Positions 31,901 through 64,000 of a stretch of 64,000 nucleotides of DNA are shown here, piece after piece. Source of the stretch: Antedon mediterranea (taxonomy: Eukaryota > Animalia > Echinodermata). The notes under the pieces were generated by a model, which saw nothing but the letters and a program-made list of their open reading frames with translations, made no database searches and had not been told where the DNA came from. Both the position numbers and the translations under genes were made by a program. The DNA lies in assembly GCF_964355755.1 (NCBI RefSeq), contig NC_092674.1, positions 30,442,001-30,506,000 of the forward strand. The letters are read 5' to 3'. The number at the start of each line of letters is the position of its first letter. The stretch's first letter is position 1.

Positions 31901-34900
31901 GCATGCAAACACTTTCATGTTTTCTGTGATTTGATTTCAGGTATGCGTTACTGTTCTATATGTAAATCTGTTAAACCAGACAGGTGCCATCATTGTTCTG
32001 TATGTGAAAGGTAAGAATAAGCAGATATGTAATAATGCATCCCTCGTCAAGACATTGCTTTAATAATTGCCTAATAAGGACAAATTCTTCATATTCAAAT
32101 TCTTCATATTCAAATATATCCAAATTTTAATGTCTTTCATTTATTTATGCATAGTAAACCTTTTTTGAAAAGAAAAATTGAATGTTCACATGTTTCTAGG
32201 AATTGTATTATATTTTATATGGTTAATATCATTTTATTTTCTTAACTATTGGTGATATAAATGCAAAATATATGATAAAAACCATTAAACGCATGGTATT
32301 AATGCGTTTACTGATGCGTATCCTCATAAACGAGGTCTCCTATGAGAAGGGCAGTTACTAAATGCCTCGCGGCCATATGCTTGATATCTTTATCTATATG
32401 ATCATAAAGACATTTAAGATGCAGTCAAATTCAAAGATTTAAATTAACATGCTTTTAGTTCAATTATAGAAAATGTACATGCAACCATTTTGATGTAATC
32501 TTAATACCATAAGATAAAATGCAACATTTGTTGAATGAACTAATAAAATAATAAAATGTGTTATTTTTTTTTTAGTTTTAAAATACCTTTTCAATCCTTC
32601 CTACTTTAATTAATGATCTGTCTCTGTACATTCTCAATCATAATTGTTGAATCTTTGTATAATATTTTATAAATTTTACATTTAATAATTTTGTTTGCTT
32701 GAAGTAGTGAAAAAAAACATTTTTTTTTATATTCCATCCACCATGTCTCTTTATATAAAATGCTGCTTCAATGCTGTACAGCTCAATCTTGTAGTGTCGG
32801 AGGACACTCAGTCACGCTTGAATGAATCTCACGACAATTCAGTGATAACATCACAGTCATATATTAATGTTGGTACATTAGTAATCTACTACTTTAGTAA
32901 AGCTATACATTAATGGAATATATGTACATTTATTTAATGTGCTTCAGTTTTATAGGGGTTAGCTTATAAAATATCTTTTTATTTTTCTCAAGTAAAATAT
33001 AATTTTTTTTTGTGTTTGAATATTAAAAACATCTTACTGTATTTTCAAAATTATGAATATTTTTCTCCGACCTGCAGCAGGTCATGACCTGACCTGTAGG
33101 TCAAAGTCTGACCTGTATGATGCAACATGTAGGGACAGTGACTGACTTATTTTAGTGTCTATGTCGTCCCTCGACCAAATGACACTTTGTTGTTTTTGTA
33201 TATATAAGTTTTCTCATCTAATTATAAAGATTTTTTTTGGGAAAAATTCGCTTAGCTTATAAATTGTATGGATGTTTTTGTTTTGCAGGTGTATTTTGAA
33301 GATGGACCACCATTGTCCGTGGGTTAATAATTGTGTTGGATTCACCAACTATAAGTTTTTCGTTCTGTTTCTGTTTTATGCATTGACTTACTGTTTATAC
33401 GTAGCTGCCACGGTCCTCCCATATTTTATTAAATTTTGGTCGGTAAGTACAATTTGTTCTTTCACACTTGCTCTGGTACAGCTCTGGTTCCAGTTCAGTT
33501 TAGAGTACAACATTAGAGACTTTTCTGGATGTAGTTATTAGCTTCCAAATGTGGAATAAATGTATTACAAAATGTTTCATCCATTTTTTTGTTTGTTGGG
33601 TATAATAAGCCTACCATTTTGAATCAGATTTGTACTCAAGAAAATCAACTTATTCAGAATCGGTTCCTACATACATGAATAACTGATAATTGTTAATTTG
33701 CAATCTTTTCTCTTTTTGTTTTGTTTGAAATAAAGGAAATGCATAAATGATTAAGATGAAATGTTAAAAATATTGCATGTTATCTTGGACAAAATTTTAA
33801 CGCTGATATTTTATCAGAATTATTTTAAATTGAAACAAATGTTGACAGCAAAGTCACATTTAAGTGCATTTAACAATAAATGATTCATTACTATGCTTGA
33901 CAGCAGCAAAGGATTAGTATATAGTGTACATTGCAATCAGAATCTATGTACACATTTCTACATTTGGAACATTCAAAACACATTATTTTTGGTATTGAAA
34001 TATACCATGCATGATGAAAAATAGGTTAAAAATGTAATAACTTAATGTAAAAATATATGAAAATATTCAATGTGATAGACCACTTTAAATAACAATATCA
34101 ATACTTATTTTGTTTTTTTTTAATTAAGAAAATAACATTTCTTGTTGATATTGATTTGTTTTTTTGCTGTGGTTGCAACATTCAGGATGTAGGCGGTGCA
34201 GATATGAGCTTCCAAGTAATGTTCCTGTTCCTAATGGCAGCCATATTTGCGCTTAGTGTAGTCACCCTCTTAATGTACCACATCCAACTGTCCGGCATAA
34301 ACCGTTCAACACTAGGTAGGCCAGCTTTGATATTTATACTTTTAAATTTCTTTTTTCATGTTGGTTAGGGAGAGTTGGGTGATGAGTCTAGCAAGTTTCA
34401 TATTTTGTTCCTGTTTTTCGCGGCAGCCATGTTTGCCGTGAGCGTTCTTGCTCTACTAGGAATGCACACTCACCTCGTTCTCACCAACAGGAGCACCCTT
34501 GGTAAGACTTTTGGTTCAAAGGTCGTGTTAAGGCTGATAATGGTATTCCTTTATTTCACAGTGAATAGAGACTTTTCTCAATGCCTCGTAAACCTGATTC
34601 ATTCCATTCCAAATACTTCTGTTCATCTCTATTTACATTCTTACATTAAAACGAAAACAACAATTTTATTTTAATTTAACTTTTTATCATTAAGCAAAAT
34701 TAGTAAACAAAATCCAGTTTCAAAATCGTTTGAAATTGACCTTTCTTTCAAAAAAATTGTACATTTTAAATCTAATTGCTGGTGTTCTTTACTAGCACTG
34801 CTACACAGTATACTGCTCGCATAGATTGTGAGGCATCATCTAGGTACCTTAAATGTCCCTCAAATTCAACTCTATTCACCACCTTTTCTTTATTGTTATC

Positions 34901-37900
34901 CGTCTACATACGACTGAACCTTTCAGATTATAACATTATTTATTTTTTGTTTGTTGACTTTGTTTTTGTTTCCTAATAGCATGAATATATGGTTTGTATT
35001 TTTTTTACTGGTTTGGTACTGTAAACATTATTTTGTTTTTACGTTAATTGCGAGGTTGCAATATTAATAAATCTGATATTTTGGTTTTGGTTTTAGTGTT
35101 TTCTTTTTGTTATGTTTTATTTAGAAATCAATAGTCACAGTTACAAAAAACAATTTTACTATGTGTATGTTTTAATCTATTATTATTTTTATCATTATTC
35201 AATATATATTTCTTACAATTATTTGTGTTTATAAAATATAATTTTGCTTATTTTAATCAAAAGAATGTTTATACATGTACCCATCATGGTGTGTACCAAA
35301 AGTAATATTTATTACCCACTCTAAATTTTGGAGTAATTATTTCATGCCAGTCCTACTTTCACCTATCTTGTTCAAGATGGCAAAGGCAACTTACTCTGGT
35401 TCATGTTCAATATCATTGACTTAAGCTCTGTCTACACTATCAAACTTTATGTGACAAAAAAATGTGATGTGCCCATATATGGACATGATGATGTCATATC
35501 ACTACCATATTTGGGCATATCACACCAAGTTTGATAGTGTAGACAGAACTTTATGCAGTAAATGAATGCTAATCTTTATAACATACAATTGCATGTATTC
35601 AGTGGAAACATACTTATTCTTTCATTGATTAACATGGTTATAACTTACTTAGAGTCGTTCCGTGCTCCTGTCTTCCGCCACGGACCAGATAAGGAAGGAT
35701 TCAGCCGGGGAAGTTTCTGCAACAACTTCCGTGAAGTATTTGGCGATGAGAAAAAAATGTGGCCACTACCAATCTTCACAAGGTATAAATAATTTTGTTT
35801 GTGTAATCAATTTGTTTACATGTTTCCATTCTGCTTGTTTTGTGTCCTGTTCTCATTCTAATATTTTTGCAATTTGTTTAAATCTCAAAATCTCAATCTC
35901 ATTTCTCAGTCTCTCTAAACAGAACCTACTATATTTAAAATATATTTTGTTTGTAATGTTGTTACTCATTCATAATAACATTAAATTAACATTCAATATA
36001 TTTTGTTGACTAACTGTAGTAAAGGAAGCGGGTCAATGTTTCCTAACTACTACAATAATGCTCACATGTTCCCTCCGTACCGGTGAGTACAAGGGTAGCA
36101 CACATTGCACAGTTCCCTCCGTACCGGTGAGTACAAGGGTAGCACACATTGCACAGTTCCCTCCGTACCGGTGAGTACAAGGGTAGCACACATTGCACAG
36201 TTCCCTCCGTACCGGTGAGTACAAGGGTAGCACACATTGCACAGTTCCCTCCGTACCGGTGAGTACAAGGGTAGCGCACATTGCACAGTTCCCTCCGTAC
36301 CGGTGAGTACAAGGGTAGCGCACATTGCACAGTTTCCTTCGTACCGGTGAGTACAAGGGTAGCGCACCATGCACAGTTCCCTCCGTACCGGTGAGTACAA
36401 GGGTAGCGCACATTGCACAGTTCCCTCCGTACCGTTGAGTACAAGGGTAGCACACATTGCACAGTTCCCTCCGTACCGGTGAGTACAAGGGTAGCGCACC
36501 ATGCACAGTTCCCTCCGTACCGGTGAGTACAAGGGTAGCACACATTGCACAGTTCCCTCCGTACCGGTGAGTACAAGGGTAGCGCACCATGCACAGTTCC
36601 CTCCGTACCGGTGAGTACAAGGGTAGCACACATTGCACAGTTCCCTCCGTACCAGTGAGTACAAGGGTAGCGCACATTGCACAGTTCCCTCCGTACCGGT
36701 GAGTACAAGGGTAGCGCACATTGCACAGTTCCCTCCGTACCGGTGAGTACAAGGGTAGCACACATTGCACAGTTCCCTCCGTACCGGTGAGTACAAGGGT
36801 AGCACACATTGCACAGTTCCCTCCGTACCGGTGAGTACAAGGGTAGCGCACATTGCACAGTTCTCTCCGTACCGGTGAGTACAAGGGTAGCGCACATTGC
36901 ACAGTTCTCTCCGTACCGGTGAGTACAAGGGTAGCGCACATTGCACAGTTCCCTCCGTACCGGTGAGTACAAGGGTAGCACACATTGCACAGTTCCCTCC
37001 GTACCAGTGAGTACAAGGGTAGCGCACATTGCACAGTTCCCTCCGTACCGGTGAGTACAAGGGTAGCGCACATTGCACAGTTCCCTCCGTACCGGTGAGT
37101 ACAAGGGTAGCACACATTGCACAGTTCCCTCCGTACCGGTGAGTACAAGGGTAGCGCACATTGCACAGTTCCCTCCGTACCGGTGAGTACAAGGGTAGCA
37201 CACATTGCACAGTTCCCTCCGTACCGGTGAGTACAAGGGTAGCGCACATTGCACAGTTCCCTCCATACCGGTGAGTACAAGGGTAGCACACATTGCACCG
37301 GTGGTGTCGCCCCAAAAACATTAAATTGTAATGGCAATGTAGTAGCTTAGTGGTTAACATGTCTAAATCTGTATCTACACTAGCAAACTAGTTTGAGTTG
37401 CCCAAATATGGTAGTAATCATCACCATGGGCACATAACATTTTTTTGTTACATAAAGTTTGATAGTGTAGACAGAGCTTCGTATAGTATAGTACAAGGAA
37501 TTTTATTTTATACCATATATTAATGTGGATAATTCTTTTTCTTCCGTTATAACTGGGCTAAGTTGCACCCAGGTGAGGATGACACACATATAGCAACTTT
37601 CAAAGGATTCCTTGTAATCGCACAGGTGCCACCAAATGGAACTCATTCATCATTCCACAATGACAATAATGAACCAAATATTAATGTGAACTACCTCAGT
37701 GGCTCCGGTCAAGTTTGACCTACATACCAAATCTCATTTTATCTAAATCCTAAACTAATATATTTACTTTTATTACATCTAATGTGTGTCTTTTCTTTTT
37801 AGTACCATGTCATGGTTTTTTGGGGAAAAGTAGTTAAAATCAAAAAAGTAGAAAACATTCAATAGTTTTATCAACCATGATTTATTATTAAAATGAAAAA

Positions 37901-44437: not shown

Positions 44438-47400
44438 TTATTTCGTCGAATTTCCTTTCACATTACTTAATGTACTCATCACTTTTTTGCTTTTCCCTTC
44501 AAGTACTTCAGTTACCAACGTGTCCTTAAACGAGTACCATGCTCTGCCCTCACGAATTTTCGTCAAAGTTTCTTTCGGTTGAGGAAAATTGATTGCCTAA
44601 AACAAACAAAAAGTTTATCCACCTGCACCTAATTATCAAAACCTTTTAGAAAAACAGATGTAATAATTCCTATGCTTTTGAAGAATGTTTGCCTTGTTGA
44701 ATGTTGTAACACAGTAAAGCTTGTTCCCACTAGGACGCAACGCAATGACGTTAAGCGTAGTTCCCACTAGCGACGCAACGCAATGACGTTAAGCGTGGTT
44801 CCCACTAGCGACGCAACGCAATGACGTTAAGCGTGGTTCCCACTAGCGACGCAACACAAGGACGTAACGCAACGCAAGTGAATTGACCAATCACAAGCGT
44901 TGTGATTGCTAACTGTCTATAACTTCGCTTGTCATTGGTTAAAACGCTTGCGTTACGTTTACGTCCTTGCGTTAGTGGGAACCAAGCTTTAAGCGCGCCG
45001 CAAGTATTCACGGCGCGATGGATTATAGGAACTGTCGCTTGTAATTGGTCAAATTGTGTTGCGCCTATATGACGTTGCATTGCATCCTAGTGAGAACCAA
45101 TCTGTAATCGATATTTTGAAGCTTTTTAAAGATTCCATCACCTACCATCGTGTTAATTGTTTGCAACATCTTTATGGTATTTTCATTTTTAAAAAACTTC
45201 TTAGAAACAAGAATGCAGTGACAACCCTCACTGACTAAGCTTAGTTTGTTCTTAGACTTTCGTAATACGGTTTCCAGACCCTGTGAATTGAACAATTTCC
45301 TACAGTCACCATATTTGAAAAATAGTTTTATATCATGTTAGGCTTTGGTTCAGAGAAGGGGTTATTGCTACAGGAGTCCTTCAATAATAAAGGTATACCA
45401 GGTACACCTATATCTAGATTTCGCCAGTATCATAGGCATATTTGGTAATACAACATCACATGTTTCACATATATCCCTTAGAGTATCATATACCATCACC
45501 TAGCCATTGTCCTTCCATAGGCACCACATATGCGTTACATGTATTACCAAATCATTGACACTATGGGCAAATATTGTAGTGTGTGGAGATACCGCACTGA
45601 GAATCCAGGAAAACCAGGGAAGAGATATTTCACTTCATGGATTTACCAAAGTAGTCCATTGGAATTAAGTTGATTCTTTCGACTTCATGGGCTATCCTTG
45701 GTTTCTTATTTAATGTATTTGCTTGTAAATTGTTTGTATTCATTGCCTTGTAATCTTATGTTGAAACCGAAGAAAATAAAATAAAATCAGTCATATACCG
45801 CACGCGCAGTATGTTGAATGTTATGGAATCAGTTAATAAGTAAAAACATGATGTAAACAAGTTGTAATGTTCATTATTCCCATCACATTTCCTAATTAGT
45901 AATATGTTTTAGTACAACTTACAAACACGGATCCAGCGCCAAGCTCAGCTATCTGTGCGTACGTTGTAACTGTGTTATGTTTGATGACAGATTCATTGAT
46001 TTCATATTCCATTGGATTATCTTGTACCTGTAAAACAATTGCAAATAAATATTTTTATAAAACATCTCCGTAGAATCATGGATTAAGGAATTTAATCCAT
46101 GGTAGAATGAAGTGAATATTGGATTGATGTATTACACTTGCATTCAGCAAATAATCTTTTTTTCTCCAACCTCTTTTTCTGTTAAACCGCTTGCAGTAAA
46201 CCCAACTCGTTTCCACGTTCTCTGGATACCATCACAGTTAATAGGTTCTGTAATATTGTCTATGTTTTAAAATTAAAACAAATTAGTTTATGTAATTATT
46301 CTTATAATTATTGTTGTGTAGGTCACAGGTCATCTCTGAATAAGTAGCATTTTTATCATCGATGTCATAAGGTTTATCGCAAATAGCGTGCGCCAATGCA
46401 AGATAGGAAGGGTTTGGGAGCAAACGCCGCCACAACGCTTACCTACGTGATTTGTTGGTTGTACGTACGCGTCGTTACGTTTGCTCCCAAATCCTTTCCA
46501 TCATGCATTGTGCAATGGCATTCTTCCCGAAATCAAGCTATTTGCGATATTATCGCATTATTCTTCGTATAATTTTAAACTAATCTTTATCAAACAAAAT
46601 AAAAGTTCTGTTATATCTTAAAAGTACCGACCTTCATTTTTTAACTGAAGTTGTTGAGGAGACTGAATAAATATCTTCTGAAAATCATCATGTCTAAAAT
46701 GTTCAAATCTCTTCGGTTGTTGTAACTTCTTCTGTAAAGAAACATTTAAAGCACAATAATTCAAACAAATGAACGCCCAAAATCCTATAAAAAGCTTTTT
46801 AAACATTTAAAAACATTTAAACAATAAAAGTCAGTATTATATTACCTCTACGTCATCAAATATAGATGTTCGCTTATTGAATATTCTATCAACCGGGACT
46901 TGAGCAGTGTTTATCCTTTTCTTTGTTTCGAAAAATGACACTGTTTGGTAAAATAATAGTGATTAACTGGCAATTAAACATTTTGTTTGAAAACCTAAAC
47001 AAACCAATCATTGAATTGAACAACAACCAAGGTAACCGAATACTGTATCTTGTGGTCACAAGTAAGATTTTATTGCGTAATTTAAACTGCGCAAAAAGTT
47101 TGTAATACTACTTAAACACAATGTTTATACATACTACTCTTTCTCAGAACCGCAGTAGTTTTCCAGTCTTCTTTACGTCTGCTGCAGTAATCGACTTTTG
47201 AATGCGGTCGTTTGATTGGTTCTGATATTTCAGAGACTACCTTACATTTTCCCTGAAAAAAAGATAGGGATGGGGAAGAAAGTTGTAAATTGTTTAAATC
47301 CTGGTTAGTTAGTCTAATTACTGTATAATCAATTTTGGAACTGTAGTAGCAGTACTCTGTAGATACATTGATGACCTTATTATACTACTGTAAAACTTGA

Positions 47401-50400
47401 AATTTAGACATTATGTTAGACACACCATATCGAGGTTTCTCCACTTACCGATTTTACTATAGCAATATGAGCAGCTTCATTGACATTTCGTAAGATCACT
47501 GTTTCTGGTCTGCAGAAAGACAACATTTGTAAACACATCAAACAAATCTTTGTTAACTGTATTCCTACTACAAAACAATACCACTCTCCTCTAATTCAAC
47601 ACCAATTTTCACCAAAACCACCAACAAAAATCAGTTTATTTCAATTAGCCCAAATCGTAAATGTTTTAATTATCTAATAGTTCTTCCTGTCAAGTTATAA
47701 TTTAAGCTTGGGTTCCCATTTGGAAGCAACGTAAGGACGCAGTTAATTTTACCAATCACAAGCGTTGGATCATTCGAACTGTCACCTCTCATTGGTCAAC
47801 TCGCGTGCGTTTCGCTTACGTTGTCCTTGCGTTGCGTTCTAGTGGGAACCAACCTTTAAAGCTTGCCACTAGCGACGCAAAGCAAGAACGATTTGACCAC
47901 CAATCACAAGCGATTGATTATTCAAACAGTGGCTTGTCATTGGTTAACTGGCTTGCGTTGCGCGTACGTCATTGCGTTGCGTCCTAGTGGGAACCAACCT
48001 TTAAGAATGAATGTTGTTCTTACTTGTAATAATCACAGGTAAGATTGCTGTAGTTAGACTTTAATTCATCAACTGGTAATCCCCAGAAAAGTTCTTGTGA
48101 TTTACAGAATTTGATGAGTTCTTCACGGTCCTGTTCTAATGGGTCACGAATTAACCTTTGGAAATCCTAATGTGGTGGTAGAAAGGTCCTACAGTATTAA
48201 TTGGACGTATAGAGCAAACACAAAATACGTCACTTGGTAATAACTATGTAAAGCGTGGTTCCCACTAGCGACGCAACGCAGCAACGTTTTGACGCAAAGT
48301 GCTGTATTGCGTAATCACAAGTGCGAACCGACGACGAAACAGTGCTGCAAACATCGCAGGTTTGATTTCACACAGGCGAGGGCAAACACAATTATTAGAA
48401 GGGCATTTTCTTACGTTGCGCAGATTGCGTTACGTTGCGTCGCTAGTGGGAACCACGCTTGAGCTATCAATGCTTTTGATTAAAGTGGCTCAAGAGTTGG
48501 TAAATCAACATACCTTCTTTTCTATCATTAAAAGCTCGACATGATCTTTGCAGACGTAAGTGAACTTACGCGGTGTATCACGCAATAGTTCATGACCCTG
48601 CAAATACAAGACAATACAAACTTTAACAAATTATCAATACAACATTTGGATTATGTTAAGATAAATCAATTTTTATTCATAGAAAATGTACACCATTTTT
48701 TATTCAATTTGTGCTTAAATCCTGGCTACCATTTGAACGCAATGCAAGTACGTAAGCCCATCATAAGTTACGGAAAATTGACTAACAATCACGACGCGGT
48801 GGATCCGGACTATCTCTTGTGATTGGAAACCAAATGTTAACTTTTAATTGTTTACACGATCGACGCAACGCGACAGCGTACGTACAACGCGAGTATTTTG
48901 ACAATTACATGGCAATCCCATTACAGATCTACCGTTGGTTGGTCAAATAACTTGCATTACAGTACGTGTACATCCTTATGTCATAATATATAGACAAAAC
49001 TTTACCCCAAAGGCGTCTCCGTTTGAAACTTTAGCAACAGTTCTGACAAATGTCGTTCCATTTCTGTAGTCCATTTCACGTTCATTCACTAGACATGTTC
49101 CTGATAACATAATGTAGAAACCCGACGCACGATGCCCTTCTTTTAGAATCATTCGTCTATGTTCATATCTAGAAACAAAAATACACTGATTCAGCTACAA
49201 TATATTGTCACCCTTTCCTGGCTGGTAATTTGTGTATGGGTGCAGTTATCTTGGCCTAGTGTAGCGCTCCCCTCATGTGTACACGCCCTGTGACCTCTGA
49301 TAAGTCCCCCCCCCCCCATAGTGTACTGTATGATTGGATCATCTCGATCCTTGGTTTTCTGTGTTTTTTTAAATTTTAATTTTAATGTAATGTAATACCA
49401 GCAGAAACTTACGTAACGAAATGCATAACTTTAGCTAGTGACAGCTGAGTTTGTTTTGAATAGTTTCCAAAGGTTTTATTGCTTCTTAGTAAGGCTATAA
49501 CCTGGAGAGGCTACAGAAAAACATTCAGATTCAGTAAACTTTTCAGCGTAAACAACATGATTTATTGTTAGGCATATTGTAAATCATTCGATTTATTGTA
49601 AGACGACATAATCAGAACCTTTTGGAACATTTTCACCAGTGTTAGCCAAGTGAAATGAAAATAATAATTAAAATATTCCTGGCAAATAATGAATTAAATA
49701 AATCCAGCATGTGTTTTTATCAATGTAATGTACTGGAAGGCTATTTCATCTACAACATTATAATATTATTGTTTACCGTTTCTAACTCTTCTTGTTGTCT
49801 TCTTTCTGGTTTCTTCGTTAATATCAGTTTAAGTTTTTCTGATCCTCTTTTCTGAAATGTATAAGAAAGACGGTACAGTATGACTATGTTCGAAAGAAAA
49901 TTGTACTTTTTATTTAGAGAAAGTGTGTAAGTTGTTATGTCCTGTTAAATACCGGTAAACCTTTTTTTATAAGTGTTTACAATTTCTTCTTTACAGTCTA
50001 TTACTAAAAACATTCTTACTCTAATAGTTTTACTTACAAGTCGTAAATTAGACAACATACATCGGTGAAATGCCAAGGAATCCTCTATATCAGCTCTTAT
50101 GAAAAGATCCATCTCTACTAACGACCACAGTTTTGTTTCATCAAGTTTCACATAGCTGTAAATAAGTATCAATAATAATTCATTCTCATAAATACATTCT
50201 GATTGATTAGTTACATAGTCGTTTTCGTGCTACCTTACCTGGATAAACCTGTAATATCCCGAGGGAGACTATTTTACGATAACAATTCCTTTAGCACCCC
50301 TTTTATAATAATGGACTAATCCGACAATTTTAGTAAACTGACTGCATTTGTATTTTGATAGATCTTCCATAAATAAACATGAAAATGATACAAAAACACT

Positions 50401-51823
50401 GTTGGTTTTTATTGTGGGGTCATTTTGGAAAGTTTACTTGTGCATTTTGTGTAAATGTATTCAGCTTGTCTTCCGTCTATCAATATATTTGTTTCTGCAG
50501 TACATTGCTTGGGTTTATCAAACGGTTTGTAGGTTTCAATGACACCGAAATTTTACTACGACTTTTTAATGCACTATGTCGACCTGTTATTGAATATGGT
50601 GCTCCTGTGTGGGATCCACATCAAAAACAACATAATATAGCTATTAACAAGTCATTAAGACGGCGGGTTACTAAATTGTGTGTTGAAGGCGATTTCACTG
50701 ACAGGCTTAAGATACTAAATTTACCAGATATGGTTCAAAGAATGAAATTTCATAGTATAATTTTTGTAGTTAAGTGTTTGCATAATTTAATTGATTTTGA
50801 TATATTTGAATACCTTACAATTAATTCTCGGTATCCAGAGTCCCTCACCTTTAAACACATGTATGCTAGAACTAATGCATTTAAATACTCCCTGTTTGTT
50901 AATTTCCCTCGAATATGGGAATGTATCCCGCATAAAGTTCGTAACAAAGTCCTGTTTAACTTTGGGGGGTTTAGAAGGGATTTGAAAAAATGTATTACTG
51001 ATATCGAATTCATCTAGACTATCTCTGTGTATTTATGTCTATTACGTTTTTCGTACTATTAGTTGGGAAAGCCACTCGACAGTGCAGTTCTTTTGAACTG
51101 ATCCACTTTTGGTTACCCGCATGTGCTAGTACTTTTGTTCTGTTTTGTTGATTGATGCCGTACCTTGTTTATGATTTTTGTATGTTACCTGGAAATTGAA
51201 TAAAAAAAAAAAAAAAAAAAATACATCACGGTCATGCGTCATTTGAGCGTCGTTTATGACATGAACACGTACCTTTTCAATGCGAGACAAATGGCAGCAA
51301 TAACACGAACTGTTTTGGAAACTCTTCTAAACTTGTTATATGGCTTGAATTATAAAGAAATAAAATCGTTAAAAAAACAAACAAAAAACACGTATGTGAC
51401 GTCATTTTCACGCTATAGAGGAACGTACAGTATTTTCTTACCGTTTCATTAGCTCTTGTGGAGATCTGAAACAAAAATATAATTTGAGAAACTTATGATT
51501 GTAAATTATTGTAAAAGGCTGATTATTTGTTACCATACAAATAAAGTTACAGCAATGCATAATGTCTACAATATGCACAAATAAAACATTCTAGTGTGCA
51601 TTGAATTGATAAATATAAGCCCAAAGTCACGAACCTGTTGGATGGTATGTTGCCGTCGTGTTTGAAGTGATTTTCTAACATTCCTCAAAGCATCTAGCGT
51701 CACATTATCAGCACTGTAACGACATTGCTCCTCCAAATATGTTGCCCGTGTTGAAAGCATAGTTTTGCATTTTTGAAAATGAGACGGAAACACGTCAGTT
51801 GATGTTCTAGCGATACTGGCCAT
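44438..51823 (-). CDS. Cyclic nucleotide-binding domain-containing protein (CNBD2/CNBD1-like, two cNMP-binding domains). Approx. exons: 51635-51823, 51443-51466, 51273-51343, 50038-50155, 49777-49851, 49412-49500, 49005-49168, ~48514-48597, 48024-48166, 47449-47509, 47132-47252, 46846-46942, 46629-46735, 46139-46260, 45923-46027, 45146-45299, 44438-44596
   Basis: Hand-spliced translation MASIARTS...PYNKFRRVSKTVRVIAAICLALK...LILTKKPERRQQEELETVIALLRSNKTFGNYSKQTQLSLAKVMHFVTYEHRRMILKEGHRASGFYIMLSGTCLV...VAKVSNGDAFGGHELLRDTPRKFTYVCKDHVELLMIEK gives a canonical cNMP-binding fold. A second domain follows (...IAIVKSGKCKVV...LSLVSEGCHCILVSKKFF). Stop TAA at 44438-44440. Confidence 0.82.
44718..44988. 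mobile_element. Harbinger-type MITE family B (AGCTTGGTTCCCACTAG...CTAGTGGGAACCAAGCT) with left end tandemly repeated
   Basis: gttcccactagcgacgcaacgcaatgacgttaagcgt repeated 3-4 times; the right TIR is followed by tta. Confidence 0.75.
46077..46101. mobile_element. 25-bp palindrome with perfect 7-bp target duplication; candidate P-superfamily footprint
   Basis: gtagaat|CATGGATTAAGGAATTTAATCCATG|gtagaat. Confidence 0.7.
47705..48000. mobile_element. Two adjacent Harbinger-type family B MITEs
   Basis: Both end ctagtgggaaccaacct (~47855 and ~48000) and share a gaccaatcacaagcg core. Confidence 0.7.
48252..48459. mobile_element. Harbinger-type MITE family B (long subtype)
   Basis: agcgtggttcccactagcgacgcaacg...cgttgcgtcgctagtgggaaccacgct; near-identical inverted copy at 51842-52043. 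Confidence 0.8.
50504..51221 (+). mobile_element. 5'-truncated LINE (CR1/L2-like ORF2 C-terminus, 3' UTR, poly(A)) in an intron of the CNBD gene
   Basis: LLGFIKRF...LLRLFNALCRPVIEYGAPVWDPH...RLKILNLP...YSLFVNFPRIWE is the post-RT region. AATAAA runs into poly(A) ending at 51221. Possible TACAT duplication at both ends. Confidence 0.85.
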
Positions 51824-51841
51824 ATTTCTGTCAACCCCTCA

Positions 51842-52555: not shown

Positions 52556-53303
52556 AGCTTGGTTCCCACTAGCGACGAAACGTAATGAAGCCTACGCAAC
52601 GTAATGCTTGGTTCCCACTAGGACGTAAGCAAGTAGACCAATGACAAGCGACAGTTTGAATGATCCATCGCTTTTGATTGGTCAACTCACTTGCGTTGCG
52701 TCCTTCTGTTGCCTCTCTATTCAAATTCAAATTCAAATAAACATTTATTTCTTTCATTCATATTTGAGTAAAAAAACATTATAATTTCTGATATTTTATA
52801 AATAAATATTTTTTTTTTTTTAGAGATATAATACAGTAAATCATAATGTATAAAAAGATGATTCAGTTATATACAAAATGAAAGAGGCAAAAAAACCCAA
52901 GAAAGTATCGATCAATTGGAAACAAAAATCCAATTGAAACTTGTATGTTGGGAAGCCATGTAAGAATATTATATACTTATATATATAAATGTAAACATAT
53001 AACTACACATACACAAAAAGATCAACAGACACACACACACACCAACAGAAAAGGAAGCAATTTCGAAAAAGTATTAATTAAAAATATTACAAAATAGAGA
53101 AAACAATTAGTTATAATTTGAAATAAGTCTAAGTCTATAGTCGGAACCAAGCATAAGGAATAATAATAATGCCCGCCTGCGTGAAATCAAACTTGCAATG
53201 TTTGCAGCACTGTTGCGTCGTCGGTTCCCACTCGTAATTACATAATACAGCACTTTGCATCAATTACGTTTGCGTTACGTTGCGTCTTCAGTGGGAACCA
53301 CGC
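52556..53303. mobile_element. Family B MITE (52556-53153) interrupted by a retroposon 3' end, followed by a partial family B copy (~53170-53303)
   Basis: The left TIR aagcttggttcccactag and right TIR tagtcggaaccaagc are separated by the 52719-53130 insert. Confidence 0.65.
52719..53130 (-). mobile_element. Non-LTR retroposon 3' end with (TTTGAA)n tail; same family as 60261-60590 and 63938-64000
   Basis: Reverse complement matches 60261-60590 over ~330 bp, including the (TG)n, AATAAA and tail. Confidence 0.8.
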
Positions 53304-54105: not shown

Positions 54106-54436
54106 AACACACAATTAAGACATAAATAATATGCACGTACTGTATTGTTTTAAAATTTATTTTTTATAAACGGCTGCCGGAATTTTCACCGGCTTATTCT
54201 TATTTTTCTTCGCTGCTTTTAGCCGGTATTGGTTTTCTTCTTGCCCAATGCATTCTTAGAACTAACATTTTATTTAATACAAAGGGAATACATTAGTTAA
54301 ACTATATATGTGAACATTGGAGAAGGAAATAGTTATGCTAATACGAAAGTCAAACATCATACACATAATTATTCTAGCTAGGAAGTTAAATTACTAAAAA
54401 CATTGGGATCATTTTCCTTCATATTATGAATTCGTT

Positions 54437-57400
54437 TTACAATTCATCGCAGAGGATAAAATCACTAGTAAGTTCTGTGAAATAAAACAAATTAAAGATT
54501 ACCTATATATTGTCTTTTGTTCTTTTAATTGGATATACTAAAATTCTACATTTTACTAAAAAAAGGTGGAGAAGAAAGAAAGAATTGTTTTGAAAAACAA
54601 ATCTTGTCTCTTTTATGTAGCGCCCCTAGCGGCCACTTTATTTGTTTGAAAGAGCTCAATTAATTATGACACGCCACATGGGCAAAACTATTTAGCCTTT
54701 AATGAACAAATGTCTCATACTTACCAAAATCGCAATTTCTTCCTGTAATACAAGGTAAGCAACTACAGTGATAAGTAGAACCACGCCTACTACATGTACC
54801 ACCATTCTGACATGGGTTGGATAGACAGGGATCTACACCACTATTTCCTGTGAATACGGAATAAAATGAATTAATTACTAATATAAAGCAGTGTATAAGT
54901 GCAAGTTAGAAAGTAAATACCGGCAAGAAATAACAGTGGTTTTTAGTTATAACTCTATATTCTCGCACATTAAAAAATATTTGGTTTTTGTACCATTTAC
55001 CCTTTGGTCCTTTTGGTCCCTGTGATCCTTTTGGTCCAGGTGGTCCTTGTGGCCCTTGTTCCCCTCGAACTCCTTCTGTCCCATTTGATCCTTGAGCTCC
55101 TCCTGGTCCCTTTGGTCCTGGTGGTCCTTGTGCTCCGCGATCTCCGTCTGTCCCATTTGGTCCTGGTGGTCCTTGTTCCCCTTGAGCTCCTTCTGCCCCT
55201 TTTGGTCCTTGTGGTCCTCCTGATCCCTTTGGTCCTGGTGGTCCTTGTGCCCCTCGAGCTCCTACTGATCCCTTTGGTCCTGGTGTTCCTTGTAACCCTT
55301 GTTCCCCGCGAGCTCCTTCTAATCCTCTTGGTCCTAGTGGTCCTTGTGGTCCCATTGACCCTCTTGATCCCTTGTACCCTGGTTGTCCCGGTTGCCCATT
55401 GTCTCCGGCAGTTCCTAATAAATTGCACCAATTATGTCAATAAAATTAGTACTGTAGAAAGTTACAAACAAACAATAAAGTAAAACTAGAAGTTTTTTTT
55501 TATAGAAATAACGAAGGCTAGGGTTGGATTGCAATATAAAGACTAGGCTTAGACTTAAGCCCGACGCAATGCGCAAATGAATCATTTTGAAGCATTAAGT
55601 TTCAGTGATTCGTCTTCTGATACAATTTGGTGCCAGAATTAAGAATTTAAAAATGATATTGCGAAAAAATGTAATTGCAATAACAGGACCATAATATGTA
55701 AAACAGGTGCAATATCTATACCTGATGTGGTTTTATCCTGTCTAAATAAAATAAAATAAAAAAATAAATAATTGTCGTCGTATGGAACGCCAAGCAATAA
55801 CATATATGCCAACGTATTAGGATAAAACACATTTTTATTAATAGCCATATTATGAATTATAATCCTATACAAAATAAATAAATCGTTCAACTACTATAGT
55901 ATAATCTTATACAAAACAGAGTAAAAGTAATCACTTACCTTGGTCCCCTTTCGGGCCCTTTAGACCTATAGTAAAAATAAATGATGTTCATTTTTTTATT
56001 TTTTTTATTAAACCTTATTTAGTGAGGGTGACCCTAAACAGGTTATGCTGACAATCAAAGGGCCATTATAAAAACATTATAAAAAACATATGTGGAAAAA
56101 GAAAAACAGATGATCTATGTTAAAAAAAATATATACATAAATACAAAAATATAGCCTACAATACTATACCAGGGAAGTGTAATTTAACTCTTCCCTGACT
56201 ATACAAAACGTTGAGATTTTTCTTTTGGAATTAAATATTTTTTTAGAGCAGACTTAAAATTGTTTATTGTTACCTCATTTTTTAGTTTGGTGTGGGTATA
56301 TTCAGGTATGTTGGTGCTCTATAGATAAAGCTGTTCTTAAAATTTTCGGTTTTAGGGAAAGGTACGACAAATGTCCTCTCATTGACACTTCGGTGAATTA
56401 ATTCATTCGGTTATTAATTGATTATTGAACATATCCTAAATGTTTTTTCTGAAATGTGATTATACATTTTCTTGTCTGCTTCTTTTCTGTACTTCTCACT
56501 CACCACGTTTGCCCCTTTTCCCTGGCTTCCCTACACCAACTTCGCCTTTAATTCCAGGAGAACCAAACAATCCAGTCTCACCTTTATTACCCATATTACC
56601 TTTTAAATAAATTTTAAAAAATTATTGTCTTTGTAGTGTAATAAAATAAAATCTACAAATATTAATAAAGAATGTAATATATTATTTATCAATATTTGTA
56701 GAACATTTTATATATCAAAAATATATGTTGACCAATTTAATTCATTTGTTTGGTTAATCTAGATGTGTTGACTACTAAGTAATGTGAACAAACAATATGT
56801 TGAAGTCATGATAATTTATTACGCATATCTACCTACCCTTTTCTCCTTTACTGCCCATCGCACCATGTTGTCCGGGGATACCAGGTACACCTGAAATGTT
56901 TAAACGTTATTATTGTCACTATATTGTATGACGTCATGACATCACCACTGCACTCCGTCGTCATAAATACCTGAAATGTTATTATTGTTACTATTGTTTG
57001 AATTCATCGTCATAAACCAAATTGTACCAACACATTACTTCAATATTTCACCATCACCACACTCGTAACATTTTATTTAGTTGTGGTTTTTAGTGGCGTG
57101 CCAAGACGACTCTATAGCTCACTATGTCGGTCGGTCGGTTGGTCGGTCGGTAAACACTAACTCAAATTTGCGCACGCGACTGCAGCAAATGTATGGTCTT
57201 GTTTATCAGAGAAACATTCGCACATTATTATTAATATTATTAGTGTTATTATTATTATTATTGCTATAATTTACCCCAAATAATCTCTTTCCTCACCTGG
57301 AGCTGCCGGAATTGGGCTGTTACCCTTCGGGCCTTTTGGGCCTGGTGGTCCTGTAGGGCCTGAAACAAATAATTATAAATATAGAAAAATTTACAGAAAT

Positions 57401-60400
57401 AGCCCTAGTTGATTATGCCTCCTCCACCCAGATACTTATTATTATAATTGGCCCAATTTGAAATATTCAAAATACACATAAATGAATATTATAAATACTA
57501 CGTTAATATTCGTCGTCAAACGATTATTCAGTATTCTCGCAATTCATTTATACTTCAAGTTCAAGTTCAAGTTCAAATTTATTCACATAATGCAAACATA
57601 TACAAAATATAAAAGATACAAGTGGTTGGAAATTAAGTAAATAATAGTTGCATTATGCCTGGAGAATACCATTTAAACCCCAAGGGGCTTTAAGCCTGGA
57701 TCCACCAGAAAGAATAAAAAAGTTACATACTACACAATTCATTTATACTTACACACTACGCAATTCATTTATACTTACATACTACGCAATTCATTTATAC
57801 TTACACACTACGCAATTCATTTATACTTACACACTACGCAATTCATTTATACTTACATACTACGCAATTCATTTATACTTACACACTACGCAATTCATTT
57901 ATACTTACACACTACGCAATTCATTTATACTTACACACTACGCAATTCATTTATACTTACACACTACGCAATTCATTTATACTTACATACTACGCAATTC
58001 ATTTATACTTACACACTACGCAATTCATTTATACTTACACATTACGCAATTCATTTATACTTACATACTACGCAATTCATTTATACTTACACACTACGCA
58101 ATTCATTTATACTTACACACTACGCAATTCATTAATACTTACACACTACGCAATTCATTTATACTTACACACTACGCAATTCATTTATACTTACAAACTA
58201 CGCAATTCATTTATACTTACATACTACGCAATTCATTTATACTTACATACTACGCAATTCATTTATACATACTACGCAATTCATTTATACTTACACACTA
58301 CGCAATTCATTTATACATACTACGCAATTCATTTATACTTACACACTACGCAATTCATTTATACTTACATACTACGCAATTCATTTATACTTACACACTA
58401 CGCAATTCATTTATACTTACATACTACGCAATTCATTTATACTTACATACTACGCAATTCATTTATACATACTACGCAATTCATTTATACTTACACACTA
58501 CGCAATTCATTTATACTTACACACTACGCAATTCATTTATACTTACACACTACGCAATTCATTAATACTTACACACTACGCAATTCATTTATACTTACAG
58601 TACATACTACGCAATTCATTTATACTTACACACTACGCAATTCATTTATACTTACACACTACGCAATTCATTTATACTTACACACTACGCAATTCATTTA
58701 TACTTACACACTACGCAATTCATTTATACTTACACACTACGCAATTCATTTATACTTACACACTACGCAATTCATTTATACTTACATACTACGCAATTCA
58801 TTTATACTTACATACTACGCAATTCATTTATACTTACATACTACGCAATTCATTAATACTTACACACTACGCAATTCATTTATACTTACACACTACGCAA
58901 TTCATTTATACTTACATACTACGCAATTCATTTATACTTACACACTACGCAATTCATTAATACTTACATACTACGCAATTCATTTATACTTACATACTAC
59001 GCAATTCATTTATACTTACACACTACGCAATTCATTTATACTTACATACTACGCAATTCATTTATACTTACAGACTACGCAATTCATTTATACTTACACA
59101 CTACGCAATTCATTTATACTTACATACTACGCAATTCATTTATACTTACATACTACGCAATTCATTTATACTTACACACTACGCAATTCATTTATACTTA
59201 CATACTACGCAATTCATTTATACTTACACACTACGCAATTCATTTATACTTACACACTACACAATTCATTTATACTTACATACTACGCAATTCATTTATA
59301 CTTACACACTACGCAATTCATTTATACTTACACACTACGCAATTCATTTATACTTACACACTACGCAATTCATTTATACTTACATACTACGCAATTCATT
59401 TATACTTACACACTACGCAATTCATTTATACTTACATACTACGCAATTCATTTATACTTACACACTACGCAATTCATTTATACTTACACACTACGCAATT
59501 CATTTATACTTACACACTACGCAATTCATTTATACTTACACACTACGCAATTCATTTATACTTACATACTACGCAATTCATTTATACTTACACACTACGC
59601 AATTCATTTATACTTACACACTACGCAATTCATTTATACTTACATACTACGCAATTCATTTATACTTACACACTACGCAATTCATTTATACTTACATACT
59701 ACGCAATTCATTTATACTTACACACTACGCAATTCATTTATACTTACACACTACGCAATTCATTTATACTTCACACTACGCAATTCATTTATACTTACAC
59801 ACTACGCAATTCATTTATACTTACACACTACGCAATTCATTTATACTTACATACTACGCAATTCATTTATACTTACACACTACGCAATTCATTTATACTT
59901 ACATACTACGCAATTCATTTATACTTACACACTACGCAATTCATTTATACTTACACACTACGCAATTCATTAATACTTACATACTACGCAATTCATTTAT
60001 ACTTACACACTACGCAATTCATTTATACTTACACACTACGCAATTCATTTATACTTACACACTACGCAATTCATTTATACTTACACACTACGCAATTCAT
60101 TAATACTTACATACTACGCAATTCATTTATACTTACACACTACGCAATTCATTTATACTTACACACTACGTAATTCATTAATACTTACACACTACGCAAT
60201 TCATTTATACTTACACACTACGCAATTCATTTATACTTACACACTACGCAATTCATTTATTGTTGGTGTGTGTGTGTGTCTGTTGATCTTTTTGTGTATG
60301 TGTAGTTATATGTTTACATTTATATATATAAGTATATAATATTCTTACATGGCTTCCCAACATACAAGTTTCAATTGGATTTTTGTTTCCAATTGATCGA

Positions 60401-63079
60401 TACTTTCTTGGGTTTTTTTGCCTCTTTCATTTTGTATATAACTGAATCATCTTTTTATACATTATGATTTACTGTATTATATCTCTAAAAAAAAAAAATA
60501 TTTATTTATAAAATATCAGAAATTATAATGTTTTTTTACTCAAATATGAATGAAAGAAATAAATGTTTATTTGAATTTGAATTGAATTTGACTTACATAC
60601 TACGCAATTCATTTATACTTACATACTACGCAATTCATTTATACTTACACACTACGCAATTCATTTATACTTACATACTACGCAATTCATTTATACTTAC
60701 ACACTACGCAATTCATTTATACTTACATACTACGCAATTCATTTATACTTACATACTACGCAATTCATTTATACTTACACACTACGCAATTCATTTATAC
60801 TTACACACTACGCAATTCATTTATACTTACATACTACGCAATTCATTTATACTTACATACTACGCAATTCATTTATACTTACACACTACGCAATTCATTT
60901 ATACTTACACACTACGCAATTCATTTATACTTACACACTACGCAATTCATTTATACTTACACACTACGCAATTCATTTATACTTACACACTACGCAATTC
61001 ATTTATACTTACATACTACGCAATTCATTTATACTTACACACTACGCAATTCATTAATACTTACACACTACGCAATTCATTTATACTTACACACTACGCA
61101 ATTCATTTATACTTACATACTACGCAATTCATTTATACTTACACACTACGCAATTCATTTATACTTACATACTACGCAATTCATTTATACTTACACACTA
61201 CGCAATTCATTTATACTTACACACTACGCAATTCATTTATACTTACACACTACGCAATTCATTTATACTTACACACTACGCAATTCATTTATACTTACAC
61301 ACTACGCAATTCATTTATACTTACATACTACGCAATTCATTTATACTTACATACTACGCAATTCATTTATACTTACACACTACGCAATTCATTTATACTT
61401 ACACACTACGCAATTCATTTATACTTACACACTACGCAATTCATTAATACTTACACACTACGCAATTCATTTATACTTACACACTACGCAATTCATTTAT
61501 ACTTACACACTACGCAATTCATTTATACTTACATACTACGCAATTCATTTATACTTACACACTACGCAATTCATTAATACTTACATACTACGCAATTCAT
61601 TTATACTTACACACTACGCAATTCATTTATACTTACACACTACGCAATTCATTTATACATACATACGCAATTCATTTATACTTACACACTACGCAATTCA
61701 TTTATACTTACACACTACGCAATTCATTTATACTTACACACTACGCAATTCATTTATACTTACACACTACGCAATTCATTTATACTTACACACTACGCAA
61801 TTCATTTATACTTACACACTACGCAATTCATTAATACTTACACACTACGCAATTCATTTATACTTACACACTACGCAATTCATTTATACATACATACGCA
61901 ATTCATTTATACTTACACACTACGCAATTCATTTATACTTACATACTACGCAATTCATTTATACTTACACACTACGCAATTCATTTATACTTACACACTA
62001 CGCAATTCATTTATACTTACACACTACGCAATTCATTAATACTTACACACTACGCAATTCATTTATACTTACACACTACGCAATTCATTTATACTTACAC
62101 ACTACGCAATTCATTTATACTTGCACACTACGCAATTCATTAATACTTACATACTACGCAATTCATTTATACTTACACACTACGCAATTCATTTATACTT
62201 ACACACTACGCAATTCATTTATACATACATACGCAATTCATTTATACTTACACACTACGCAATTCATTTATACTTACACACTACGCAATTCATTTATACT
62301 TACACACTACGCAATTCATTTATACTTACACACTACGCAATTCATTTATACTTACACACTACGCAATTCATTTATACTTACACACTACGCAATTCATTAA
62401 TACTTACACACTACGCAATTCATTTATACTTACACACTACGCAATTCATTTATACATACATACGCAATTCATTTATACTTACACACTACGCAATTCATTT
62501 ATACTTACATACTACGCAATTCATTTATACTTACATACTACGCAATTTTCATTGTCGGTGTTACGTTTCACGATGTGCTGTTGAGTCTAAAAGGAAATAC
62601 ATTTGTTTGTTTTGTTTTACGTTTAAAGTATAGTATACTGTTTTATATATAGCTCAATGTTTGTATGACACAAAGCGGTAGAATGCAATCAAATTTGTAT
62701 CTCTTTTTGATTATGATTTCCTTACAGTGTTGGTATTTTACAGAAAGGTATATATGAAGATATCAATTGACGCGCGCGTACAAAGTCCGTACCATAGTAT
62801 CAAGATTTTAACGCACGCGTCAAGCGTTGTCGCCTCGTTTGTTGCGTTACAGCAACGATACAAATAAGATGGAATTATACTCACCAGGTTATTACTTATT
62901 TTCTCTTCATACACATGAACTTTTGATTTCATTTCGAGAAACAAGTATTCTTGGTTGAAGAAAATCACAGCAACCACAATAGAAATGATGACGTTGAAAA
63001 ATAGCTGTCCACGTGACGACGACGAAACATTACGATTGGTTGTTTCACCAAGAATCCCGTACTCTTTCTCTGTTGACAT
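54437..63079 (-). CDS. Type II transmembrane collagen with C-terminal EGF-like domain. Exons: 62885-63079, 62535-62586, 57297-57359, 56837-56890, 56504-56599, 55940-55965, 55001-55413, 54725-54847, 54437-54474
   Basis: MSTEKEY...LFFNVIISIVVAVIFF (TM) | TQQHIVKRNTDNENCVVC|PTGPPGPKGPKG, then long Gly-X-Y exons joined in phase 1, then DPCLSNPCQNGGTCSRRGSTYHCSCLPCITGRNCDF (EGF) | ELTSDFILCDEL*. All junctions GT-AG. Confidence 0.8.
56170..56197. mobile_element. 28-bp palindrome with perfect 7-bp target duplication; candidate P-superfamily footprint
   Basis: actatac|CAGGGAAGTGTAATTTAACTCTTCCCTG|actatac. Confidence 0.7.
57555..57722 (-). mobile_element. Retroposon 3' end with (TTGAAC)n tail inserted in the outermost 26-bp satellite unit
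   Basis: The minus strand reads AATAAATTTGAAC(TTGAAC)n; the satellite monomer is split on either side. Confidence 0.55.
57723..62547. repeat. 26-bp satellite (acttacacactacgcaattcatttat) x ~170 filling a collagen-gene intron
   Basis: Direct tandem copies; the 26-aa periodicity of the spurious ORFs equals three 26-bp units; interrupted at 60261-60590. Confidence 0.98.
60261..60590 (+). mobile_element. Retroposon 3' end inserted into the satellite without TSD
   Basis: The monomer ttcatttat|acttac is split exactly; the insert ends AATAAATGTTTATTTGAATTTGAATTGAATTTG. Confidence 0.85.
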
Positions 63080-63937
63080 CCTACTTTAAGAAAATATCAA
63101 CATGTTCACAAAATTTTAAAATCACAATTTAAAGATATATTGTCCCCACAATGAAAATGAAGGTTAATAAATCAGACTTTGAATAGGCAAATTTTGCAGT
63201 TTTAATATTTAAATTGATTAACTTCCGTAGCAATTTTAATAAAGTTATTAAAAAGAAATAAAACAAAAATAATAATTTTACTTTAAAAAAATATAATAAA
63301 CGTAAAATGTATCTAAAACCCCAGACACACATTTTTGCCATTTTATGCCTTATGAATGAATAACCATTATTTGGTATTAAAAAATAATACTTTTGGATAG
63401 ATATTCTCTGACTATGGTAGGCCTAGCTTACCTTGTTATTTGCCAACCAATTACCATGTAGTAGGCCTAGTACCAAGATTCCTGATACACGGTACGGTAT
63501 ATCAATATTGACGGAAACGAAGATCCAGCGGCCGCTTTCAGTAATTTAATAATCCTTTTGGATAGATATTCTCTAACTAAGGAGGCCTAACTTACCTTGT
63601 TATTCTAGTACACCAGTATGTTCTCATCTATCTAAGGTAACCTACTATGAACGTACAGAACCTATCATTGTCTTTTTTGGTATACTCCACTTGACTACCT
63701 GTCAGTCAGAGTTTGTGAATCTTTAGTCGACATAAATTAATTTGTAAATATATTCATTAAGTCTGGAATTTCTATTTTAGTGCCTGACGTATTCTCCCAT
63801 GTACTGCTTCATTCTTCTGTTTAACTCTCCTCATTTTATCATGTAGTGACAACCATTTTCCTTCATGCTTTTTTCCTTAGTACGATGTATTATGACATGT
63901 TTCCCATTCGAATGAAAGTTCGTACGTGCTGGTATAT

Positions 63938-64000
63938 AATTCAATTCAATTCAATTCAAATAAACATTTATTTCTTTCATTCATATTTGAGTAAAAAACA
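63938..64000 (-). mobile_element. Third copy of the (TTGAA)n-tailed retroposon, continuing beyond the window
   Basis: caaataaacatttatttctttcattcatatttgagtaaaaaaca, essentially identical to 52734-52779. Confidence 0.8.

What the first reader, a model, noticed from the sequence alone, without database searches (positions are those of the whole stretch)
57536..62586. A satellite made from the gene's own exon-intron junction: ~170 tandem 5' splice sites
Seen: on the collagen sense (minus) strand, exon 62586-62535 ends ...GAA AAT TGC GTA GTA T|GTAAGTATAAATG, and the 26-bp monomer (AATTGCGTAGT(A/G)T|GTAAGTATAAATG) is exactly this junction, repeated for ~4.8 kb. Using the first donor gives NENCVVC|PTGPPG in frame with exon 57359. 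Reading past it gives TGT AAG TAT AAA TGA, so every downstream donor yields a premature stop. Established: GTAAGTAT is complementary to the U1 snRNA 5' end (AUACUUAC). Inference: array length could act as a splicing/NMD rheostat, a U1 sponge or a recursive-splicing ladder. Read-through would give a collagen-less membrane stub. How the spliceosome picks the first of ~170 near-identical donors is an open question.
Basis: partly seen in the sequence, partly recalled or inferred. Interest (0 to 1): 0.82.

Follow-up and report, generated by a model that had tools for sequence, protein, structure and literature searches.

The report
Repeated splice donor in collagen intron
In an animal's membrane-collagen-like gene, the end of exon 2 with its splice signal is repeated 174 times into the next intron while near-identical sister copies likely keep a single signal, so this is likely a tolerated by-product of a repeat type already known from human and lancelet genes.

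Summary
A 26-bp unit spanning the exon 2 donor of an intact 9-exon gene (likely membrane anchor, collagen, EGF) is repeated 174 times (62547-57723, minus strand), giving 164 GTAAGT donors; any downstream donor adds a stop. Two repeat insertions interrupt the array. Public DNA contigs show near-identical copies that likely have one junction (intron about 198 nt, against 5,175 here) between the same 7-bp direct repeat that ends the array: the signature of microhomology-seeded duplication. The one RNA contig across this junction uses the first-donor position but comes from a sister copy, so donor choice on the array-bearing copy is untested. The arrangement is known: human F7, IFI6, CBS, LMNB2, PDGF, ABCA7 (12-427 units) and lancelet 'mirages'; F7 minigenes use the most upstream donor. 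A recursive ladder lacks its signals (0 AG|GT, no pyrimidine tract); sponge and selected rheostat are unsupported. A second such array (27 donors) lies in a DHHC gene in the same window. This scan's notes list 71 findings holding these words in at least 32 genomes. Verdict: new member of a known kind, low interest; its value is the natural with/without-array pair.

The parts
62885..63079 (-). Exon 1 coding part: start codon, predicted short cytosolic tail and hydrophobic membrane anchor
   Evidence: hydrophobic stretch judged by eye; sister-copy RNA contig covers it; no homologue found
62535..62586 (-). Exon 2 (52 nt, phase 0 to 1); its last 13 nt start the repeat unit
   Evidence: skipping shifts the frame; RNA contig joins exon 1, exon 2 and exon 3-like sequence
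62522..62547 (-). Unit 1: 13 exon nt + 13 intron nt, the authentic donor at 62535|62534
60591..62521 (-). Array, first block (units 2-76), with a repeated run of 15 units starting at 62521 and 61955
   Evidence: longest run in 300 shuffles 14, mean 7.5
60261..60590 (.). 330-bp dispersed repeat inserted inside unit 76; likely a retroelement 3' end (tail type recalled)
   Evidence: 99.4% over 329 nt to 53047-52719 (inverted), 98% over 57 nt to 63998-63943
57723..60260 (-). Array, second block (to unit 174)
57554..57722 (-). 169-bp insertion inside the last unit, ending in a short tandem tail; high-copy in the DNA runs
   Evidence: depth bins 57520-57740
57538..57553 (-). End of the last unit plus the 7-bp direct repeat AATTGCG that closes the array (microhomology arm)
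   Evidence: a relative's contig leaves the array sequence exactly after this arm
57360..57537 (-). Unique 3' part of intron 2 with the acceptor
54436..57359 (-). Exons 3-9 (57359-57297, 56890-56837, 56599-56504, 55965-55939, 55414-55001, 54847-54725, 54474-54436): collagen repeats, one EGF domain, stop
   Evidence: Pfam Collagen E 5e-22 and EGF E 4e-7; introns 3-6 seen as CT..AC joints in run X1

Best explanation
This is a young minisatellite that spans the exon 2 splice donor and likely arose by slippage between two 7-bp direct repeats 26 bp apart, then expanded; the spliceosome likely uses the first donor and treats the rest as intron. Shown: the anatomy, the intact frame, the stop behind the first donor. 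Inferred: a single-junction precursor (from related contigs), birth by microhomology, first-donor use by exon definition or 5'-to-3' scanning as in human F7, and removal of the few transcripts cut at donor 2 or 3 by nonsense-mediated decay. The array is then a tolerated passenger, kept harmless because only the first donor gives an open frame.
For: Array closes with exactly the 7 bp that start the unit. A 149-nt DNA contig in X2 and X4 lies on 62578-62515 and has 85 letters left over; contigs of the same depths (38.1, 8.15) carry a 1-nt gap at 57508, and the far end works out at 57453, 84 letters against 85 expected: one junction, no array. A second version (106 nt, in 3 of 3 DNA runs) leaves the window sequence after 62516. 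All 9 exons are open and all 8 introns GT-AG. The one RNA contig over the junction continues at the first-donor position into exon 3-like sequence, 27 of 30 letters, next best place 22 of 30. Units differ 1.6% from the commonest one and take insertions and indels. A second donor array sits in a DHHC gene 21 kb away. Precedent; microhomology model.
Against: No RNA contig shown to come from the array-bearing copy crosses exon 2/exon 3: the contig differs by 8 substitutions and a 3-nt gap in 172 nt of exon 1 and has 7 other letters at the exon 1/2 joint. The link between the two halves of the single-junction contig rests on equal depths and length arithmetic, not on printed letters. A single-junction state could also come from collapse of an array. 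Repeats of 5-8 nt flank the other 7 donors of this gene too (1 of 7 reaches 7 or more), so the seed alone is not special. F7 data are for 5-9 units in mammalian cells; IFI6, CBS and ABCA7 show some use of the next one or two donors.
Confidence: 0.7

Rival explanations
1. The array is an unselected expansion that lowers output of this copy (more donor-2/3 use, slower intron 2 removal, exon 3 skipping or early polyadenylation in the inserts), making it a weak member of a small gene family whose main transcript comes from a sister copy.
For: The deepest spliced contigs in X1 (depth 375-529) come from another copy; the only listed X1 piece identical to the window in this gene's unique part is unspliced, depth 5.1 (54890-55078). 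ABCA7: longer VNTR goes with lower expression and more skipping of the next exon. Exon 3 is 63 nt and phase-symmetric, so skipping would stay in frame.
Against: Contig depth cannot rank genes and contigs drop rare variants (tool caveats); one run only, RNA status a guess. No sign of decay in 353 codons.
Confidence: 0.2
2. The array is a selected regulatory device: NMD rheostat, U1 sponge or recursive-splicing ladder.
For: 164 donors with 8-9 of 11 matches to the recalled U1-complementary consensus, as good as the gene's real donors (6-9 of 11); a stop lies directly behind donor 1.
Against: 0 AG|GT and no pyrimidine tract; near-identical copies likely do without it; the commonest unit has lost the -2 A (114 of 164); array-type sequence in X1 works out at depth about 43 for all units together (weak hint, may be DNA); U1 is very abundant (recalled); the stop is ordinary AT-rich intron sequence; in ABCA7 one-unit retention was about 2% and did not track length.
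Confidence: 0.06
3. The array is an assembly artefact, or a dispersed satellite that landed by chance beside a similar exon end.
For: X4 shows no deep array contigs (34.6 at 62512-62536) although labelled the same sample as X2 and X5. Summed array depth is 1,260-1,520 times unique depth, 7-9 times the 174 units assembled, so more monomer may exist elsewhere; no genome was held to check.
Against: Array sequence is very deep in 2 of 3 DNA runs and X5 has unit-to-unit loose ends; the unit continues the exon's codons exactly and the exon is needed for the frame; the array holds private variants and insertions; overlapping short contigs are summed, so the ratio is no copy number.
Confidence: 0.04

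Closest known systems
Human minisatellites whose first unit spans an exon-intron boundary: F7 intron 7 (37 bp, 5-9 units), IFI6/6-16 (25 pseudo-sites), CBS intron 13 (15-20), LMNB2 (100 bp, 10-15), PDGF intron 4 (81 bp, 16-18). PMC1557585: abstract, introduction, first results sections and passages read; the primary papers on the other four genes were not read.
   Same: Unit = exon end + donor + intron start, repeated into the intron; copies keep the GT.
   Different: 7 to 35 times more units; invertebrate; two insertions inside; donor use on this copy not observed.
Human ABCA7 intron 18 VNTR (25 bp, about 12-427 units; PMC5954066, passages read)
   Same: Same unit size and a length range that includes 174 units; each unit carries the donor; retention of one unit gives a premature stop.
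   Different: The ABCA7 unit begins at the GT rather than inside the exon; length polymorphism and expression effects are measured there, not here.
Lancelet 'mirages' (Adh3, troponin C, globins BflGb6 and BflGb9, PGBD5; PMC3087553 and PMC3902484, passages read)
   Same: Tandem duplication of an exon-intron boundary in a marine invertebrate, several per genome, reported not to disturb splicing.
   Different: Far more units than the 3-6 given for BflGb6; likely not a lancelet (earlier AI notes call this genome a feather star, not tested here).
Microhomology-mediated tandem duplication (Haber and Louis model as cited in PMC13167724, passages read; original not read)
   Same: Single-copy segment flanked by a short direct repeat; array ends in that repeat.
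   Different: Direction (expansion, not collapse) is inferred.
Host protein: type II membrane collagens such as MACITs (PMC4678570, abstract only)
   Same: Predicted short cytosolic tail, membrane anchor, collagen ectodomain.
   Different: Short, ends in an EGF domain; no R-X-X-R next to the membrane; the abstract says MACITs were not identified in echinoderms. Not filed as a MACIT.

Membership tests
Splice-donor-reiterating minisatellite ('mirage') | Tandem unit spans an exon-intron boundary, first unit at the authentic junction | tested here: met
   junction position used in a sister-copy RNA contig
Splice-donor-reiterating minisatellite ('mirage') | Downstream copies keep the splice signal | tested here: met
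   164 GTAAGT in 174 units
Splice-donor-reiterating minisatellite ('mirage') | First donor used, normal mRNA made | tested here: inconclusive
   the only RNA contig over the junction is from another copy
VNTR | Unit number varies between alleles of the same locus | tested here: inconclusive
   single-junction versions exist but allele or paralogue cannot be told; three versions need at least two loci in a diploid
Microhomology-mediated tandem duplication | Single-copy precursor flanked by a short direct repeat that also closes the array | tested here: met
   7-bp repeat at 62547 and 57544; relative's contig departs after it (link inferred from depth and length)
Recursive-splicing (ratchet) sites | Acceptor AG directly followed by GT, with a pyrimidine tract (definition recalled) | tested here: not met
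   0 AGGT in 62547-57538; pyrimidine share 0.35, longest run 2
Dispersed satellite family | Monomer arrays at unrelated loci | tested here: inconclusive
   none elsewhere in the 64 kb; no genome held
MACIT collagens | Juxta-membrane furin site and conserved C-terminal 34 residues | tested here: not met
   K-R without the upstream R at the juxta-membrane site; C-terminus is EGF; no alignment to MACITs was run

The most novel reading that the evidence does not exclude
After a recent gene duplication, one copy of this membrane collagen was dimmed by a self-amplifying donor array: unit number sets how much transcript leaks to downstream donors and decay, so paralogue dosage is tuned by a mutable repeat while sister copies with a single junction give full output. 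The family would be a natural 1-versus-174 experiment on 5' splice-site choice.
Probability: 0.1. Interest if true: 0.55.

Novelty: new member of a known kind. Interest (0 to 1): 0.2.

Why it matters
As a type it is ordinary. Its use is practical: near-identical gene copies with one and with 174 junctions in the same animal would let one measure whether the first-donor rule found for 5-9 units in human F7 still holds at this length in an invertebrate, and the precursor-plus-array pair records how such repeats are born. Two arrays in one 64-kb window suggest a general mutational process, not a special device.

Tried and rejected
No genome held, so no genome-wide monomer or paralogue search. Exon 1 protein: 19 candidates, none at E 0.01; 0 hits in 1.84 billion representatives; atlas hits 0.75-0.80, uninformative; no Pfam family. 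No paralogue inside the window by tblastn. No run on record as RNA was listed; X1 is a guess that behaves as RNA through its spliced joints. Introns 7 and 8 were not seen as joints (4 of 6 introns in the stretch were); a hole proves nothing. RNA fold of exon 2 plus five units: z -0.33, no special structure hiding the donors. PMC10078293 passages gave nothing specific. Earlier notes near this place and in look-alike windows: none. Paper searches: (minisatellite, splice donor, echinoderm, intron boundary) listed 4 papers, none by title an echinoderm case; the library lacks most subscription papers and no supplements were read. A 3-nt AG-NNN-GT spacing occurs in 167 places in the array but was rejected as a micro-exon for lack of a pyrimidine tract.

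Full report
Observation. The minus strand carries a 26-bp tandem array from 62547 to 57723. It has 174 units and a 7-bp remnant at 57544-57538. The unit is the last 13 nt of the exon at 62586-62535 plus the first 13 nt of the intron. A search with up to 3 mismatches finds 163 copies, all in the array, none expected by chance and none elsewhere in the window. There are 164 GTAAGT donors: 46 with the real donor's context, 114 with G instead of A at -2, and 4 others. Against the recalled U1-complementary consensus they match 8-9 of 11 positions (one copy 7), the gene's real donors 6-9 of 11. Two insertions break the array: 330 bp inside unit 76, 99.4% identical to an inverted copy at 53047-52719, and 169 bp inside the last unit. 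Both end in short tandem tails, which from memory is typical of retroelement 3' ends. The 163 full-length units differ from the commonest by 1.6%, and a run of 15 units is repeated near the exon end (longest in 300 shuffles: 14). The array is young and still turning over.

Host gene. Nine exons with GT-AG introns give an open frame of 353 codons: predicted membrane anchor, C-x-x-C, collagen repeats, one EGF domain (Pfam). Exon 2 is needed for the frame. Donors 2, 3 and 4 each give an 86-residue product ending at a stop right behind donor 1; since that stop precedes all later donors, the same holds for all of them, and six later junctions would make such RNA a likely NMD target (rule recalled). 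Exon 1 found no homologue in three searches. Earlier AI notes call this genome a feather star; I did not test that.

RNA. Of 5 runs listed, none is on record as RNA; X1 behaves as RNA. In it 4 of the 6 introns in 54300-57740 appear as CT..AC joints at the predicted places. One 435-nt contig joins exon 1 to exon 2 and leaves the window at 62533; its loose end matches exon 3 at 27 of 30 letters, next best 22 of 30. The junction is therefore real and at the first-donor position. But that contig is not the window's copy: 8 substitutions and a 3-nt gap in exon 1, 2 in exon 2, and 7 other letters at the exon 1/2 joint that fit a divergent DNA version seen in X2 and X4. Donor choice on the array-bearing copy is thus untested. 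No listed X1 contig runs from exon 2 into the array; the depth bins are explained by the spliced contig plus one array-type contig of depth about 43. Contigs drop rare forms, so this shows no absence.

Single-junction relatives. In X2 and X4 a 149-nt contig lies on 62578-62515, stops exactly after the 7-bp repeat, and has 85 letters left. Contigs with the same depths (38.1 and 8.15) carry a 1-nt gap at 57508, and the far end works out at 57453, that is 84 window letters against 85 expected. I read this as one contig joining exon 2 to the unique end of intron 2, an intron of about 198 nt instead of 5,175. The joined letters were not printed, so this is an inference. A second version, 106 nt, in 3 of 3 DNA runs, leaves after 62516 with 38 letters over. 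With the array version that makes three, so at least one is a paralogue. The array is in public data: depth 44,392 in X2 and 354,965 in X5 against 29 and 282 on unique sequence, with unit-to-unit loose ends in X5; X4 shows none, which the tool's record filter may explain. The ratio (1,260-1,520) exceeds 174; summed overlapping contigs can do that, but longer arrays elsewhere are not excluded (no genome).

Mechanism. The precursor has the 7-bp repeat once in the exon and once 26 bp later in the intron; the array is 174 units plus that repeat. This is the pattern of the Haber and Louis model as cited in PMC13167724 (passages). Such seeds are common: the other 7 donors of the gene have repeats of 5-8 nt around them. 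Expansion into the intron leaves the first junction untouched, so the gene stays intact. First-donor use is inferred from F7, where only the most upstream working donor was used even when stronger ones followed (PMC1557585), and from lancelet mirages, reported not to disturb splicing. Some leak to the next one or two donors is likely, as in IFI6 and CBS (cited there) and ABCA7, about 2%.

Recursive splicing needs AG|GT with a pyrimidine tract; the array has no AGGT and a pyrimidine share of 0.35 before its AG, against 0.53-0.71 at the 8 real acceptors. A U1 sponge needs abundant RNA; nothing suggests it. A rheostat has partial precedent in ABCA7, where longer alleles go with lower expression and more skipping of the next exon, though next-donor use did not track length. 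A length effect here cannot be excluded (0.2 as a side effect, 0.06 as a selected device). Against my reading: the deepest spliced contigs come from another copy and the only listed window-identical X1 piece in the unique part of the gene is unspliced, which would fit a weakened copy, but contig depth cannot rank genes.

Comparison and novelty. It works like, and meets the structural definition of, the splice-donor-reiterating minisatellites of human F7, IFI6, CBS, LMNB2, PDGF and ABCA7 and the lancelet mirages. Its size lies inside the ABCA7 range (12-427 units). A second array of the kind, 27 donors, is predicted in a DHHC gene in the same window. This scan's notes hold 71 findings with these words in at least 32 genomes, some with over 1,000 units (8 shown, unchecked AI notes); they gave me the term 'mirage' and PMC3087553, which I then read in passages. 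One search for an echinoderm case listed none by title; the library is incomplete. Verdict: real, new member of a known kind, interest 0.2.

Noticed in passing
window 36020-37298 (+): Second donor array: a predicted 63-nt in-frame exon (36020-36082) of a DHHC palmitoyltransferase gene (Pfam DHHC E 3e-18 on 33293-33442) has its end and donor repeated at a 44-bp period, 27 GTGAGTA donors; read-through meets a stop at once. No RNA check.
   Followed up: partly
window 34186-34316 and 34369-34501 (+): Two neighbouring similar exons in the DHHC gene (47% identical over 43 aa), likely mutually exclusive. The exon at 36020 and the one at about 37925 also start alike (S-K-G-x-G) and may be alternatives.
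   Followed up: partly
window 60261-60590, 52719-53047, 63943-63998: Three copies of one repeat around the collagen gene, two 99.4% identical and inverted to each other: a recently active element.
   Followed up: partly
window 57294-57515, run X1: A low-depth contig (5.94) from another copy keeps 156 nt of the end of intron 2 while introns 3-5 are spliced: intron 2 may be removed late in at least one copy.
   Followed up: no
window 54700-63200, runs X2, X4, X5: Several divergent versions of the gene co-occur in the DNA runs (for example a 90-nt skip at 54898-54989 and a version differing by 13 letters at 62767-62919): a small gene family not contained in this window.
   Followed up: partly
window 17156-20084 and 24103-25477: Two arrays of a 101-bp unit in opposite orientation, about 94% complementary.
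   Followed up: no
window about 46000-51840 (-): Downstream gene with a weak cyclic-nucleotide-binding match (E 0.008, below the Pfam cut-off).
   Followed up: no
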